A DNA stretch of 23,976 nt from Thiotrichales bacterium (GCA_016744475.1 JADGEH010000073.1:1-23976), one strand, 5' to 3'. Shown: positions 3,604-6,645, numbered from the stretch's first letter. Numbers and translations: made by a program. Notes: generated from the letters alone by a model not told the origin.

Positions 3604-3870
3604 GCACGATGAACGCTGATTCAGTCTAGGTACTAATACCTCTGAGTGCTATGTTGATGGGGTTTAAGTTCATACAAAAATTCCGTTGATAATCTGTACA
3701 CACGCACCAGCCGCTACCAATAGGCCGCTGATTTACAAAATAATTCAAGCTGTTGCGTGAAGTGAGTTGAGACATGGGGGACGCATTCTAAGACGATTTT
3801 TATAAATGTCAAGGATTTATTTGTGTGGCTTCTTGGCATAAAAATCTGAGACAGGGGAGCAAGAAGACTT

Positions 3871-3918
3871 AGAGCCTATACGAAGATGGGGAATCGAAGT
3901 GAAAATTCGCTATTATGA
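3871..3918 (+). mobile_element. MITE family 1, truncated copy (left end only): agagcctatacgaagatggggaatcgaagtgaaaattcgc...
   Basis: About 40 of its first 45 bp match the left ends of the full copies at 6865 and 23695; it diverges after about 48 bp. Confidence 0.6.
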
Positions 3919-4053
3919 AGATAAAACCCTACAACAAAATCGAGATTTAACACGGCAATATTTCATCAGTTTAGTTAAAGACTTTGATTTAGAGTTAAAA
4001 CTAGACTTTAAGAAATAGATGAACAATAACATTAAAATACAGGAGACATCAGA

Positions 4054-5445
4054 ATGGCATTGTCTAAATTTAAAAGAACAATAGGTATTGTGGGTATTGG
4101 GGGGGCAGGCAAAACTGTGTTTTTAACCTCAATACTTTCGCATTTAAAATACCATGATACAAAAAAATTAAGGCTTAATTTAGATAACAATAAAGTAGCT
4201 GACATTATTAAGTTCAAAGAAATTCAAGAAGGCATGAGTTTAGATGTTTTTGCACTCGAAAAATACCGTAATACTTTACTGGATAGTAAAACCTGGCCAG
4301 ATAAAACAACGGACACTTCTTATTTTCGTTGCCACTTTGAACGTACCGATTGGTCTTGGTCTGATATTGATTTAACTTTTTTAGATGTCCCTGGTGAACG
4401 CTTTAACGATGCAGTGATGTTTTCAGGTGATGGAAGTTTTGAACATTGGAGTGATACTGTTTTAAAACGTATTACTGATGATCCTAAATGTCAGCGCTTA
4501 GCTGAAGAGTATTTACAGGTTTTAGATGACGAAAAGAATAAAGTATCTCCTGATTTTAAAAAAATCACTCAAGCATATAAGCGTACTTTAGCGCGTTTTA
4601 TGTTGGATTATGGGGCATTTATTACACCATCAGTATTTGCTCTCAATACTCAAGGGCAACAACCTGAATATAGTACAGATGTGAATAAAATTGCAGAGAG
4701 TGCTTTAACGGGTCGTTCAATGAATAGTGAGTTTGCACCTTTACCCTCTCATTTCCGAGAGAACAATCCTCCGTTGACGCGATTGTTTTCAAATTTTTAT
4801 AACGATTATCGTAGCCATGTGGTAGAAAAATTGTTTAAGCAGTTAAGCAAATGCGATAAATTACTGGTTTTAATTGATATTCCAGGATTACTAGCGGCTA
4901 ATGTAGGACGTTGTAATGACATGGAAGTTATTTTAGAACATATTTTAGAGGCCACCGTTAAAGACACCGGGATTTCAAGTTTTTTTACGGATATTTTAAA
5001 TATTGTCATACCTTCTAGTATGCGTATGAGTCAACTTAAAAATATTGCTTTTATCGCCAATAAAGCAGACATGATTAGTTATTCAGAAGTGGATAAACTT
5101 AAGCAATTATTGTGTGATTTTGTTAAAAGTAAAATAAAAAATTATCCACATATTCAACACGAATATTTTGTCTGTAGTGCTTTACGTTCAACTCAAATGA
5201 ATAACCAAGCATTATTGGGTTATCCCATTTACGATGTTGATGGAAAACAAACGCGCCCACCACGCCCAACCGATTTAATGAGTCATTTGTATCCCTCTGA
5301 TTTACCTGAATGCTGGCCTGATTATTGGGATACTGGACAGTATTTTTATCCTGATGTGTGGCCTGATATACCCCATAAAAAAACCTCCCCCCCTCATCAA
5401 AATGGTCTAGAAAACATTTTTCATTTTATCTTGGAAGAAAAATAG
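4054..5445 (+). CDS. ycjX: YcjX-family (DUF463) P-loop NTPase of 463 aa.
   Basis: Walker A motif GIVGIGGAGKTVFLTS against E. coli YcjX AVTGLSRSGKTAFITS. Shared blocks DVPGE / DYPGE, FIANKADM / FAATKADH, and an aromatic, Pro-rich C-terminus. AGGAGA RBS 8 nt upstream. Low GC, about 33%. Confidence 0.85.
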   Translation: MALSKFKRTIGIVGIGGAGKTVFLTSILSHLKYHDTKKLRLNLDNNKVADIIKFKEIQEGMSLDVFALEKYRNTLLDSKTWPDKTTDTSYFRCHFERTDWSWSDIDLTFLDVPGERFNDAVMFSGDGSFEHWSDTVLKRITDDPKCQRLAEEYLQVLDDEKNKVSPDFKKITQAYKRTLARFMLDYGAFITPSVFALNTQGQQPEYSTDVNKIAESALTGRSMNSEFAPLPSHFRENNPPLTRLFSNFYNDYRSHVVEKLFKQLSKCDKLLVLIDIPGLLAANVGRCNDMEVILEHILEATVKDTGISSFFTDILNIVIPSSMRMSQLKNIAFIANKADMISYSEVDKLKQLLCDFVKSKIKNYPHIQHEYFVCSALRSTQMNNQALLGYPIYDVDGKQTRPPRPTDLMSHLYPSDLPECWPDYWDTGQYFYPDVWPDIPHKKTSPPHQNGLENIFHFILEEK

Positions 5446-5454
5446 GAGATCATC

Positions 5455-6636
5455 ATGTCAGAATCATTCAAAGTGTTAGGTCGTCCAGTACAAAAAATAT
5501 CGCCACCCACCCCAGAAAAAACAATAGAACATAACAGACAGGATATAGAAAATTCTGAAGAAAAAGCTGTCGAAAAAACAGTAGATAGTCAGGCTCCAGG
5601 CAGTGGACGTGGCGGAGATAATACTTTAGGCCGTCCTATTCAAAAACCTAATATCTCTCAAACAAGCATAGTGTCTCGTGTAGATTTAGAAGAAAAAGCC
5701 GCACCAGCAGACATTGAAGATAGCTTTGTTCAACCTATCACTTTACCTTTAGCTTGGTTATCAGGGGTATGGTTAGTTTTATTACTGTTGGGTGGAATTA
5801 TTGGCTGGTTTGTTTTTTCTCAAGTGCTCAGCACGGTTAATATGATTTTACAATTCCCTTTAGTTATTCAAAGTATTGCTTGGTGCTTTGTTGTATTTTT
5901 CACTTTTATTGTAATTTACCCGTTATCACGTTTATTGTTAGCTTACCGGCGCTTAAAACCGATTAAACAAATCAGTATGACAAGAATTTCTACTAAAAAT
6001 TTGTCAGCAGAAAAATGGCAAGAGGCAAAAGAAACAATTAGTAGTTACCTGCAAAATTACCCCTTAGATGATCGAAAATGTAGCGAACAATTGGAGAAAA
6101 TAGGTTTATCTGAAATTCAACAAAGAAAACTGCAAGATACCAAGCTACGTTTATTGGAAAAGTCGCCGATAACAACGGAAGATTGGATTTCAGAATTTGA
6201 ACAGGATTTCCTGATGCCTTTAGATGGGGTTGTGAAAGCGCGTATTCAGCATTATGCAAAACTTCTGGCATTAAAAGCGGCTTTATCGCCTCATGCATTA
6301 ATTGATATGGCAGTGGTTTTTTATAATGGTTTTTCTTTATTGCGTGATATTTGCACTCTTTACCAAGTCAGAATTGGGCGTTTAGGTATTTTGTATTTGT
6401 TAGGTTTAGTTATTTTTCAAAGCTATGTAGCAGGACAGATCGAACACCACATTGATGGTGTTGAACATTGGATGGAGGACTGGTTACAAGGCAGTGTTTT
6501 GGGCGCAACAGGTGCGAAATTGGCCAGTTTAGCGGGTTCTAAGGTCAGTGAAGCCGCCATACATTTTTTCTTTTTGCGGCGTATTGGTCATAGCATGATG
6601 GCGCGTTTAAGACCCTTGGAAATGCAAAAGCATTGA
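5455..6636 (+). CDS. ycjF: YcjF-family (DUF697) inner-membrane protein of 393 aa, 9 nt downstream of ycjX.
   Basis: ALIDMAVVFYNGFSLLRDICTLYQVRIGR aligns with E. coli YcjF [29 protein letters not shown], and ARLRPLEM with ELCRPLPW. Two hydrophobic helices follow a polar N-terminal region. AGGAG RBS. Confidence 0.8.
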   Translation: MSESFKVLGRPVQKISPPTPEKTIEHNRQDIENSEEKAVEKTVDSQAPGSGRGGDNTLGRPIQKPNISQTSIVSRVDLEEKAAPADIEDSFVQPITLPLAWLSGVWLVLLLLGGIIGWFVFSQVLSTVNMILQFPLVIQSIAWCFVVFFTFIVIYPLSRLLLAYRRLKPIKQISMTRISTKNLSAEKWQEAKETISSYLQNYPLDDRKCSEQLEKIGLSEIQQRKLQDTKLRLLEKSPITTEDWISEFEQDFLMPLDGVVKARIQHYAKLLALKAALSPHALIDMAVVFYNGFSLLRDICTLYQVRIGRLGILYLLGLVIFQSYVAGQIEHHIDGVEHWMEDWLQGSVLGATGAKLASLAGSKVSEAAIHFFFLRRIGHSMMARLRPLEMQKH

Positions 6637-6645
6637 TTTACTTAT

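What the first reader, a model, noticed from the sequence alone, without database searches (positions are those of the whole stretch)
3610..6640. Low-GC islet with a YcjX-like P-loop NTPase and a YcjF-like membrane protein, wedged between a tRNA cluster and MITE debris
The 4054-6636 gene pair and its flanks are about one-third GC by eye, against roughly 47-52% for the surrounding housekeeping genes. It lies between a bidirectional terminator next to the tRNA cluster (3518-3558) and a run of MITE fragments (6646-6718, 6865-7024), with a truncated MITE at 3871-3918 inside its left flank. Both proteins are full-length homologues of the E. coli sigma-32-regulon pair YcjX (DUF463, Walker A GIGGAGKT) and YcjF (DUF697). 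That module has never been functionally resolved: an NTPase plus a membrane partner. The composition and context argue for horizontal acquisition of a divergent copy. A tRNA-proximal, repeat-bounded NTPase plus membrane-protein pair is also the generic architecture of abortive-infection and stress modules, so this may be a mobile variant of the ycjXF system.
Basis: partly seen in the sequence, partly recalled or inferred. Interest (0 to 1): 0.6.

Follow-up and report, generated by a model that had tools for sequence, protein, structure and literature searches.

The report
Mobile low-GC YcjX/YcjF GTPase cassette remnant
A 2.7-kb AT-rich islet carries an intact but very divergent copy of the poorly understood bacterial stress pair YcjX (a GTPase) and YcjF (its membrane partner); it is probably the trimmed remnant of a horizontally acquired accessory cassette, which is a modest refinement rather than a new kind of system.

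Summary
Window 4054-5445 encodes a DUF463/YcjX-family GTPase and 5455-6636 a DUF697/YcjF-like membrane protein. Their GC3 is 0.26 and 0.29, against 0.46 +/- 0.05 for the 19 other ORFs. The AT-rich block is narrower than reported. It starts at about 3919, at the broken end of a truncated MITE, and ends at about 6640, where a half copy of a second MITE family begins.

New here: 3914-4015 is the last 33 codons of a DUF4230-like lipoprotein gene. In relatives that gene (B) and a membrane-protein gene (A) accompany the pair. The window therefore holds a cassette remnant that has lost A and most of B.

The pair has no synteny with its 43-74 % identical homologues. It sits at lower GC3 than its hosts in five of seven other contexts read, and next to toxin-antitoxin genes in two. 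This supports horizontal acquisition.

X is only 21 % identical to E. coli YcjX, but its predicted fold matches the YcjX crystal structures. dN/dS is about 0.1, so both genes are maintained.

Nothing supports tRNA-targeted integration or a defence role. The function, a GTP-gated membrane stress switch, is inferred by homology only. Verdict: a divergent, mobile member of a known family, of modest interest.

The parts
3871..3918 (+). Truncated left end of MITE family 1. It keeps the terminal inverted repeat AGAGCCTATACGAAGATGGG plus about 28 nt; similarity extends back to about 3858. It forms the left edge of the islet.
   Evidence: an exact terminal-repeat match, and 87 % identity over 61 nt to the full copy at 6852-6912. 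The element breaks off at 3918, where GC drops.
3914..4018 (+). Remnant of cassette gene B, a DUF4230-like lipoprotein. Only the last 33 codons and the stop codon (4016-4018) survive.
   Evidence: 52 % identity over 33 aa to residues 154-186 of the 188-aa protein that sits directly upstream of the YcjX-like gene in L091 (pairwise E 1e-10). It also matches the L089 and L003 homologues. L089 B matches Pfam DUF4230 at 28.6 bits against a cutoff of 27.
4041..4045 (+). Shine-Dalgarno-like AGGAG, 8 nt upstream of the X start codon.
   Evidence: Read directly from the sequence.
4054..5445 (+). X: a divergent YcjX-family (DUF463) Ras-like GTPase of 463 aa. Motifs: P-loop G14-x4-G19-K20-T21, switch II D111-x-P-G-E-R116, guanine-specificity motif N-K337-A-D339.
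   Evidence: Pfam at 132 bits. Motif residues are invariant across 20 homologues. The AF2 model has pLDDT 86. Foldseek against the PDB ranks the YcjX structures 6NZ5/6NZ6/6NZ4 first, at E 4.5e-21 and TM 0.73. dN/dS is 0.09 against the 74 % identical homologue.
5455..6636 (+). F: a YcjF-like (DUF697) inner-membrane protein of 393 aa. It has a disordered N-terminal region of about 95 aa with two LGRP[VI]QK motifs, a transmembrane hairpin at about 99-165, and then a helical DUF697 domain.
   Evidence: Pfam at 59.7 bits. TIGR01620 at 77.5 bits, below its cutoff of 160. Hydropathy and alignment with six homologues, including E. coli YcjF. AF2 secondary structure, though mean pLDDT is only 60. dN/dS is 0.13.
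6644..6719 (+). Half copy of MITE family 2, a palindromic element of about 160 nt. It starts 8 nt after the F stop codon and forms the right edge of the islet.
   Evidence: 88 % complementary to 13331-13404 and 74 % identical to 13242-13309, within the full copy at 13244-13404.

Best explanation
The islet at about 3919-6640 is probably the trimmed remnant of a horizontally acquired accessory cassette.

Its core is a two-gene operon.
- X is a Ras-like GTPase of the YcjX family.
- F is an inner-membrane DUF697 protein of the YcjF type.
- In relatives the same core travels with two envelope proteins: A, a membrane protein with a conserved Cys-containing C-terminal domain, and B, a DUF4230-like lipoprotein.
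- In this genome a deletion next to a MITE removed A and all but the last 33 codons of B. X and F stayed intact and under purifying selection.

Proposed mechanism.
- Shown: X has the YcjX fold and all the GTP-binding motifs. F has a transmembrane hairpin plus a DUF697 domain. The two genes are adjacent and probably co-transcribed.
- Inferred from the canonical pair, which is in the sigma-32 regulon, is often linked to psp operons and is induced by phiX174 membrane damage: X cycles between GTP and GDP states and docks on F at the cytoplasmic face of the inner membrane. Together they would act as a GTP-gated membrane or envelope stress switch.
- Speculative: the conserved cytosolic N-terminal LGRPIQK motif of F is the docking peptide.
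For: Identity.
- Pfam DUF463 at 132 bits and DUF697 at 59.7 bits.
- The AF2 model of X matches YcjX crystal structures at TM 0.73 and E 4.5e-21.
- The G1, G3 and G4 motif residues are invariant in 20 homologues.

Cassette.
- A, B, X and F are contiguous in L089, L090 and L092; L091 holds B-X-F, and the order is X-F-A-B in Ca. Venteria.
- The window keeps the 33-codon tail of B, abutting the broken MITE.

Acquisition.
- GC3 is 0.26 and 0.29, against 0.46 +/- 0.05 for the rest of the window.
- The same deficit appears elsewhere. Venteria: 0.27/0.31, with A and B at 0.18-0.20, against 0.41-0.55. L004: 0.32/0.34 against 0.58-0.59. L099: 0.46/0.48 against 0.63-0.65. L101: 0.79/0.81 against 0.91-0.95.
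- The flanks differ in every genome. In L004 the pair sits between ftsL and a penicillin-binding-protein-like gene that I take to be ftsI. In L099 and L101 it sits next to toxin-antitoxin pairs.
- The tRNA-slipin block is conserved in relatives without ycjXF beside it.
- The X subfamily is far from canonical YcjX, and its deeper branches mix Planctomycetota, Bacteroidales and Alcaligenaceae MAGs.
- YcjX-family pairs also occur on plasmids, for example Sulfurospirillum pSDCE1.

Maintained.
- dN/dS is 0.09 for X and 0.13 for F.

Assembly.
- The left junction is reproduced in an independent ENA scaffold covering window 45-6914. The core is reproduced in a Logan contig covering 3882-6810.

Function by homology.
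- PMC3041696, PMC9239133 and PMC8125068.
Against: - Only 19 other genes of this genome are available as a compositional background.
- dS against the nearest homologue is saturated at about 1.8, and nucleotide similarity stops at the coding sequences. No recent transfer event or donor can be named.
- The closest homologues all come from metagenome contigs that look like related sulfur-oxidising Gammaproteobacteria. The two closest named genomes, Ca. Venteria ishoeyi and a Sedimenticola MAG, are Gammaproteobacteria. Long residence in this lineage with frequent rearrangement is therefore not excluded.
- In L089, L091 and partly L005 the pair is not compositionally deviant.
- No mobility gene, target-site duplication or att-like repeat delimits the islet.
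- No sigma-32-type -10 motif lies on the coding strand upstream of X, and there is no psp gene in the window. The stress-regulon analogy is untested here.
- The physiological function of even the canonical pair is unknown.
Confidence: 0.67

Rival explanations
1. Native, vertically inherited ycjXF. On this reading the pair is the lineage's own, ancient version of ycjXF. Its low GC would reflect local mutational bias, weak codon selection on a rarely expressed stress operon, or silencer-friendly AT-richness. The lack of synteny would reflect only the extreme genome scrambling of these MITE-rich bacteria.
For: - The nearest homologues (43-74 % identity) form one clade. Its two named genomes are Gammaproteobacteria, Ca. 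Venteria ishoeyi and a Sedimenticola MAG.
- dS is saturated and there is no non-coding similarity, so nothing points to a recent transfer.
- Housekeeping synteny is also poor. The slipin gene has different neighbours in every relative, and mreD here lacks an upstream mreC.
- Giant sulfur bacteria are known for MITE- and IS-driven rearrangement (PMC4853749).
- In L089 and L091 the pair has host-like GC3.
Against: - A GC3 deficit of 0.14-0.26 recurs in five different hosts whose own GC3 ranges from 0.46 to 0.95. That pattern is what accessory gene-pool DNA shows, not a fixed gene-intrinsic bias.
- In Venteria the deficit covers exactly the four cassette genes, with sharp edges.
- Toxin-antitoxin genes flank the pair in two contexts.
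- In L004 it is inserted inside the ftsL-ftsI junction.
- Deeper branches of the subfamily mix phyla.
Confidence: 0.2
2. Anti-phage or abortive-infection module. On this reading the GTPase senses infection and the membrane partner depolarises or permeabilises the membrane.
For: - The architecture is an NTPase plus a membrane protein, it is mobile and AT-rich, and it sits next to toxin-antitoxin genes in L099 and L101.
- The Sulfurospirillum plasmid copy lies near Sir2 and macro-domain genes.
- The canonical ycjXF is induced during phiX174 infection (PMC8125068).
- Some homologues give a faint DO-GTPase2 (conflict-system GTPase) Pfam hit.
Against: - PADLOC gave only P-loop-level noise: E 0.004 at 14 bits. 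A, B and the Venteria proteins gave nothing better than weak P-loop-level and TerB-region matches.
- There were no PHROG hits and no homologue in 50,697 phage records.
- The DO-GTPase2 match covers only about 25 residues of the P-loop.
- Window neighbours are housekeeping genes: fmt, accA, ruvB, sbcB and mreD.
- Neighbours in Venteria, L004 and L005 are not defence genes.
- The canonical induction is by heat or membrane damage in general.
Confidence: 0.1
3. Assembly chimera. On this reading a fragment from a lower-GC organism in the same metagenome was joined to this contig through shared MITE repeats.
For: - Repeats lie at both edges of the islet.
- The Logan contig breaks at 3882, inside the MITE fragment, and at 6810. 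The ENA scaffold ends at 6914, inside the 160-nt MITE.
- The right-hand join therefore crosses repeats longer than a read.
Against: - The left repeat is only about 48-54 nt and the right half-MITE about 74 nt. Both are probably shorter than one read, although the read length was not checked.
- The left junction from the slipin-tRNA block into the islet is identical in the independent ENA scaffold, at 99.985 % over 6870 nt.
- Both flanks have the same composition.
- The same low-GC islet pattern occurs in unrelated assemblies, including a 108-kb Ca. Venteria contig.
Confidence: 0.03

Closest known systems
Canonical YcjX-YcjF of E. coli and Shewanella oneidensis (sigma-32 regulon; YcjX crystal structures PDB 6NZ4, 6NZ5, 6NZ6)
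   Same: - The two-gene order is the same, and the genes are tightly spaced: 9 nt apart here, overlapping by 4 nt in E. coli.
- Both have DUF463 followed by DUF697.
- Both have the Ras-like GTPase fold with a helical insertion.
- The membrane partner has N-terminal transmembrane segments before DUF697.
   Different: - X is 20-21 % identical to E. coli YcjX. F aligns to E. coli YcjF only over its C-terminal 133 aa, at 29 %.
- F is below the TIGR01620 cutoff.
- No sigma-32-like -10 motif lies upstream, and there is no tyrR or psp neighbour.
- The context is AT-rich, non-syntenic and accessory.
- The ancestral cassette carried two extra envelope genes.
psp-operon-linked ycjXF of Yersinia and other Proteobacteria (Huvet 2011, PMC3041696; Popp 2022, PMC9239133)
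   Same: The X-F pair behaves as one unit whose position relative to other stress genes varies between genomes.
   Different: - No PspA, PspB or PspC gene lies in the window or in any related locus that was read.
- The subfamily extends well outside Proteobacteria, with many Gemmataceae members. Popp et al. describe DUF463 as restricted to Proteobacteria.
Plasmid-borne ycjXF, for example Sulfurospirillum diekertiae pSDCE1 and IncHI2 plasmids of Enterobacter
   Same: They show that YcjX-family pairs can sit on mobile replicons.
   Different: - They belong to the canonical branch, at 21-25 % identity to X.
- The Enterobacter copies are a captured chromosomal block running ycjT to tyrR and tpx.
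- The two genes downstream on pSDCE1 are not A or B homologues.
DO-GTPase2 (PF19993), conflict-system GTPases of Kaur et al. 2020
   Same: They are P-loop GTPases. Some homologues of X carry a faint precomputed hit.
   Different: The match is confined to about 25 P-loop residues. The window protein has no such hit at E <= 0.01. This is a resemblance at superfamily level only.

Membership tests
YcjX family (Pfam PF04317 / DUF463) | Full-length match to the family HMM above the gathering score | tested here: met
   132.1 bits against a cutoff of 25. Protein residues 10-462 match profile positions 3-441 of 443.
YcjX family (Pfam PF04317 / DUF463) | YcjX fold: a Ras-like GTPase core with a helical insertion, as in PDB 6NZ4-6NZ6 | tested here: met
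   The AF2 model has pLDDT 86.4 and pTM 0.87. The top five Foldseek PDB hits are all YcjX chains, at E 4.5e-21 to 1.3e-19 and TM 0.70-0.74. The next hit has E 2e-3.
YcjX family (Pfam PF04317 / DUF463) | GTP-binding motifs: G1 GxxxxGKT, G3 DxxG, G4 [NT]KxD | tested here: met
   G14, G19, K20, T21, D111, P113, G114, E115, R116, K337 and D339 are invariant in alignment A1 of 20 sequences. The window has NKAD. GTP binding itself was not assayed.
YcjX family (Pfam PF04317 / DUF463) | Adjacent, co-oriented DUF697 partner gene | tested here: met
   F starts 9 nt after the X stop codon. The same adjacency holds in all close homologues. More distant Gemmataceae members lack it.
Canonical ycjXF stress operon (E. 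coli type) | Sigma-32 (heat-shock) promoter or heat induction | tested here: inconclusive
   No CCCCATNT lies on the + strand between 3600 and 4053; the matches there are on the - strand. This organism's sigma-32 consensus is unknown, and there are no expression data.
Canonical ycjXF stress operon (E. coli type) | Orthology with enterobacterial YcjX/YcjF (NCBIfam TIGR01620 subfamily for YcjF) | tested here: not met
   TIGR01620 scores 77.5 bits against a cutoff of 160. X is 21 % identical to E. coli YcjX and falls in a separate subfamily in the NJ tree.
YcjF family (Pfam PF05128 / DUF697) | DUF697 domain above the gathering score, preceded by transmembrane segments | tested here: met
   59.7 bits against a cutoff of 27.7, over residues 243-390. 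Hydrophobic segments lie at 92-164, and AF2 predicts helices at 99-132 and 136-165.
tRNA-targeted integrative genomic island | An integrase gene, the island abutting the 3' end of a tRNA gene, and a direct repeat of the tRNA 3' end at the far edge | tested here: not met
   No integrase-like ORF or Pfam hit was found in the window. The tRNA-like genes are on the - strand with their 5' ends towards the islet, separated from it by a terminator-like hairpin. No tRNA-derived repeat appeared in the searches run. The tRNA pair is part of a conserved slipin block.
MITE- or IS-bounded composite transposon | Two copies of the same element with intact ends flanking the cargo, plus a target-site duplication | tested here: not met
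   The left edge is a truncated MITE-1 and the right edge is a half MITE-2, so they are different families and both are incomplete. No transposase is present.
Known anti-phage defence systems (PADLOC-DB 2.0) | A significant match of any component to a defence-system protein model | tested here: not met
   X gave only P-loop-level hits at E 0.004 and 0.016. F gave none. A, B and the Venteria proteins gave nothing better than weak P-loop-level and TerB-region matches.

The most novel reading that the evidence does not exclude
The ancestral unit would be a previously undescribed four-gene, envelope-spanning GTPase system: A (membrane protein with a Cys-containing C-terminal domain, presumed periplasmic), B (DUF4230 lipoprotein), X (YcjX-like GTPase) and F (DUF697 membrane protein). 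It would circulate as an AT-rich mobile cassette among sulfur-oxidising Gammaproteobacteria. On this reading, X is recruited to alternative membrane partners through a shared cytosolic N-terminal peptide, (S)GRGGDNxLGRPIQKP. That peptide is present in the F proteins and also in Venteria's A protein. The system would act as a transferable envelope-damage, or possibly phage, response. If so, the unresolved ycjXF function could be approached through its periplasmic sensor components.
Probability: 0.2. Interest if true: 0.55.

Novelty: new member of a known kind. Interest (0 to 1): 0.3.

Why it matters
YcjX and YcjF are widespread heat-shock and envelope-stress proteins whose function is still unknown. 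This locus, together with its relatives, shows three things.
- There is a deeply divergent subfamily of about 200-370 clusters at 50 % identity (191 at E <= 1e-30, 369 at E <= 1e-10) in 1.84 billion representatives.
- That subfamily behaves as transferable accessory DNA rather than core stress machinery.
- It is sometimes wired to two extra envelope proteins.

The co-varying partners A and B, and the shared N-terminal peptide, give concrete handles for asking what the GTPase senses. For this window specifically, the practical outcome is an annotation: an intact divergent ycjXF pair inside a decayed islet bounded by MITEs. It is not a defence island.

Tried and rejected
1. A genome-contig scan with X alone found nothing. 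The window's own genome is therefore not among the 185,579 species representatives. A second, canonical ycjXF and a genome-wide GC3 background could not be checked.
2. Both metagenome-contig scans, one with the MITE-1 26-mer and one with clade alignment A4, returned nothing.
3. An empty-site test through the slipin gene failed. The closest homologues are only 62-71 % identical and have different neighbours. It did show that the tRNA-like pair plus slipin is a conserved block.
4. The AF2 model of F, built from only 7 homologues, was poor at mean pLDDT 60. It gave no PDB match with E < 0.5. The afdb50 library was unavailable.
5. Blast clustering of neighbours across 76 loci was swamped by spurious ORFs from high-GC Planctomycetota and was abandoned. 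An iterated F profile found a DUF697 partner in the loci of the gammaproteobacterial clade and in 16 further genome loci only.
6. PADLOC, PHROGs and the phage collection gave no support for a defence or phage origin.
7. Rfam in E-value mode across both flanks found only the two tRNAs and sub-threshold matches, mostly of MITE hairpins to miRNA precursor models.
8. A sigma-32 -10 motif search found none upstream of X on the coding strand.
9. The two genes downstream of ycjXF on the Sulfurospirillum plasmid are not A or B homologues.
10. The YcjX structure paper (Tsai et al. 2019, PMC6697224) is not held. Its content is cited only through PDB titles and a reference list.

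
Full report
**1. What is there**

The window is a complete 23,976-bp metagenomic contig. The same sequence is in NCBI, ENA sample ERZ28566616 and Logan SRR11072027.

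ORF 4054-5445 (+, 463 aa) matches Pfam DUF463, the 'YcjX-like family', end to end at 132 bits. ORF 5455-6636 (+, 393 aa) matches DUF697 at 59.7 bits. Both are well above the gathering scores. The genes are 9 nt apart, and an AGGAG lies 8 nt before the first ATG.

GC is 0.348 and 0.382, and GC3 is 0.256 and 0.294. The other 19 ORFs have GC3 0.463 +/- 0.049, with a minimum of 0.376. The compositional anomaly is therefore real, and it is strongest at synonymous sites.

A 100-nt profile puts the sharp drop to GC < 0.30 at about 3900-3920; 3560-3870 is ordinary intergenic DNA at 0.39-0.47. The islet is thus about 3919-6640, which is narrower than the reported 3610-6640.

**2. Edges**

- Left edge. 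3871-3918 is the first 48 nt of a 160-nt MITE with terminal repeat AGAGCCTATACGAAGATGGG. Intact copies lie at 6865-7024, 7387-7548 (inverted) and 23685-23844.
- Right edge. 8 nt after the F stop codon, 6644-6719 is one arm of a different, palindromic MITE whose full copy is at 13244-13404.
- The bidirectional terminator-like hairpin at 3521-3557 is real, with fold z-scores of -4.8 and -6.1.
- MITE-driven deletion and rearrangement is documented for giant sulfur bacteria (PMC4853749).

**3. The islet is a remnant**

Directly after the broken MITE, 3914-4015 encodes ...YEDKTLQQNRDLTRQYFISLVKDFDLELKLDFKK*. This is 52 % identical (pairwise E 1e-10) to the C-terminus of a 188-aa protein that sits immediately upstream of the YcjX-like gene in L091 and L092. 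It also matches the homologues in L089 and Ca. Venteria.

That protein, B, has a lipoprotein-type signal sequence ending in a Cys and matches DUF4230; L089 B scores 28.6 bits against a cutoff of 27.

B is preceded by a protein of 380-430 aa, A. A has hydrophobic segments and a conserved Cys-containing C-terminal domain. In Venteria it also has an N-terminal TerB domain.

- The order is A-B-X-F in L089, L090 and L092; L091 holds B-X-F. It is X-F-A-B in Ca. Venteria.
- Other homologues carry X-F alone: L004, L005, L099 and L101.

The window's ancestor therefore had B, and by inference A. A deletion ending at the MITE removed them.

**4. Is it foreign?**

The close homologues, at 43-74 % identity, always keep X and F adjacent, but no flanking gene is shared between any two contexts.

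The GC3 deficit recurs:

| Context | X / F GC3 | Flanking or housekeeping GC3 |
|---|---|---|
| Ca. Venteria (108-kb contig) | 0.27 / 0.31; A and B 0.18-0.20 | 0.41-0.55 |
| L004 | 0.32 / 0.34 | 0.58-0.59 |
| L099 | 0.46 / 0.48 | 0.63-0.65 |
| L101 | 0.79 / 0.81 | 0.91-0.95 |

- In L004 the pair sits between ftsL and a penicillin-binding-protein-like gene that I take to be ftsI, and lies next to a YhgA/Rpn-like gene.
- In L101 it is bracketed by two toxin-antitoxin pairs of the NTase_sub_bind plus NTP_transf_2 type. In L099 it lies near a HigBA-like pair.
- In L089 and L091, and for F in L005, composition is host-like.

On the left side, the two tRNA-like genes plus the slipin gene form a block. 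The block is conserved in all four slipin relatives fetched, none of which has ycjXF beside it.

X is 20-21 % identical to E. coli YcjX but 30-35 % identical to Gemmataceae and other distant members. In an NJ tree it falls in a subfamily well separated from the canonical branch.

An exhaustive phmmer search of 1.84 billion representatives found only 561 clusters at E <= 1e-3, and 191 at E <= 1e-30. YcjX-family pairs also occur on plasmids.

Against a recent transfer:
- dS to the nearest homologue is saturated at about 1.8.
- Nucleotide similarity is confined to the coding sequences.
- No mobility gene or att-like repeat is present.

I conclude that the pair is accessory, horizontally circulating DNA, with probability about 0.7-0.75. 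Donor and date are unknown.

A chimeric assembly is unlikely. An independent ENA scaffold reproduces window 45-6914 at 99.985 % identity, and the repeats at the islet edges are only about 50-75 nt.

**5. Are the genes functional, and what do they do?**

dN/dS is 0.09 for X and 0.13 for F against the L004 homologues.

X:
- It keeps every residue that is invariant in 20 homologues, including G1 (G14...G19-K20-T21), G3 (D111-x-P-G-E-R) and G4 (N-K337-A-D339).
- Its AF2 model has pLDDT 86. It matches only the YcjX crystal structures significantly, at TM 0.73 and E 4.5e-21. The next hits are Arl, septin and EF-Tu GTPases at E > 1e-3.

F:
- It has a disordered N-terminal region of about 95 aa carrying two LGRP[VI]QK motifs.
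- It has a transmembrane hairpin at about 99-165, followed by a helical DUF697 domain.
- The motif (S)GRGGDNxLGRPIQKP also opens Venteria's A protein. This suggests, speculatively, a shared docking peptide.

For the canonical pair the literature offers regulation and association only:
- a sigma-32 promoter, and frequent but loose linkage to psp operons (PMC3041696);
- 'a physiological link ... is still unknown' (PMC9239133);
- induction by phiX174-induced envelope damage (PMC8125068).

My working mechanism is a GTP-gated switch in which X docks on F at the inner membrane in response to membrane or envelope stress. In the ancestral cassette, A and B would supply periplasm-facing input. Only the fold, the motifs, the topology and the gene linkage are shown. 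The rest is inference.

**6. What it is not**

- It is not a tRNA-integrated island. No integrase-like gene was found, the tRNA orientation is wrong, and the tRNA genes belong to the slipin block.
- It is not a composite transposon. The edges come from different MITE families and both are incomplete.
- It shows no membership of any PADLOC or PHROG family, and there is no homologue in 50,697 phage records.
- The rest of the window is housekeeping: mreD, fmt, accA, ruvB, sbcB, cbbQ and an arsR-family regulator with a predicted permease gene.
- No sigma-32-like -10 motif lies upstream on the coding strand, and there is no psp gene nearby.

**7. Verdict**

Horizontal acquisition of a divergent copy is supported. 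The tRNA-island and abortive-infection readings are not.

The locus is a new, divergent and mobile member of the known YcjX/YcjF kind. It survives as the X-F core of a decayed cassette. Interest is modest at 0.3.

The more novel possibility is a four-gene envelope-spanning GTPase system with a shared docking peptide. It rests on a handful of short metagenomic contigs and is given a probability of 0.2.

A by-product may deserve more attention than the finding itself: the conserved tandem tRNA-like genes with hypervariable anticodons upstream of the slipin gene.

Noticed in passing
window 3243-3389 (-); L094 9344-9492; L096 582-732; L097 9492-9711: Two abutting tRNA-like genes lie upstream of, and co-oriented with, the slipin/Band_7 gene. 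The spacer is 0-3 nt and the first gene encodes its own CCA. The block is conserved in all four relatives fetched. The acceptor, D and T arms are conserved, and the anticodon stems covary. The anticodons differ in every genome: AGA+CUU (with C33) here, AGA+UAU, CAU+AGG, and AUU+AUU plus a third. The bodies are class I with AU-rich acceptor stems, and A34 anticodons are atypical for bacteria. They look like structured tRNA mimics (processing, regulatory or decoy elements) rather than ordinary decoding tRNAs.
   Followed up: partly
window 7025-7386, flanked by MITE copies at 6865-7024 (+) and 7387-7548 (-): A dense cluster of DnaA-box-like sites. Three boxes lie in 12-nt phase at 7105-7137 (TTATCCACG, TTATCTACA and an exact TTATCCACA). 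7 of the window's 14 GGATAAS sites fall within 7060-7311, in both orientations around an AT-rich stretch at about 7215-7345. The whole cluster is bracketed by inverted copies of the same MITE. It is origin-like or a DnaA-titration locus. No GC-skew switch is visible.
   Followed up: partly
window 2784-3240 (-): About 450 nt of 52 % GC non-coding sequence lie between the tRNA-like genes and the slipin start codon. It includes a third tRNA-like 3' fragment (GGTAGAGCC...GCGGTTCGAATCCGC) at about 3185-3240. There is no Rfam match. Relatives also show gaps of about 0.4-1 kb without called genes upstream of slipin, which hold the tRNA-like genes.
   Followed up: no
window 3434-3469; L094 9261-9295; L096 492-531: A conserved element of about 36 nt (GCAGGTTCAnAAAGCCTGCCTGGCACGC) lies just upstream of the tRNA-like pair in three genomes. 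It could be a promoter or operator of the block.
   Followed up: no
window 7639-8130 (+): mreD is present, but no mreC or mreB lies upstream of it. The MITE and DnaA-box region and the islet occupy that position instead, which suggests the mreBCD operon was broken by rearrangement.
   Followed up: no
window 5455-5670 (F residues 1-70); L003 12472-12600 (Venteria protein A N-terminus): The N-terminal peptide (S)GRGGDNxLGRPIQKP is shared between the YcjF-like proteins and the otherwise unrelated N-terminus of Venteria's cassette protein A. The window's F carries two LGRPxQK copies. It may be a common docking motif for the GTPase.
   Followed up: partly
L004 1747-6138; L101 4551-8471: In the closest homologue's contig, the X-F pair sits between ftsL and a penicillin-binding-protein-like gene that I take to be ftsI, in the cell-division cluster. 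In a vent metagenome contig it is bracketed by two toxin-antitoxin pairs of the NTase_sub_bind plus NTP_transf_2 type. blastn found no nucleotide similarity between those two pairs.
   Followed up: partly
L013 6543-7895; L019 8464-11335: Distant members of the X subfamily lack a DUF697 partner. In a Limnoglobus MAG the gene is followed by an aminotransferase. In an Alcaligenaceae MAG it follows a leucine-rich-repeat protein. Bacteroidales, Alcaligenaceae and Planctomycetota sequences intermingle in one tight clade, which indicates either horizontal transfer or bin contamination.
   Followed up: no
window 3884-3891, 6878-6885, 23698-23705 (-) and 7528-7535 (+): The MITE-1 terminal repeat contains CCCCATCT, which matches the E. 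coli sigma-32 -10 consensus CCCCATNT. The inverted copy at 7387-7548 points this motif towards mreD.
   Followed up: no
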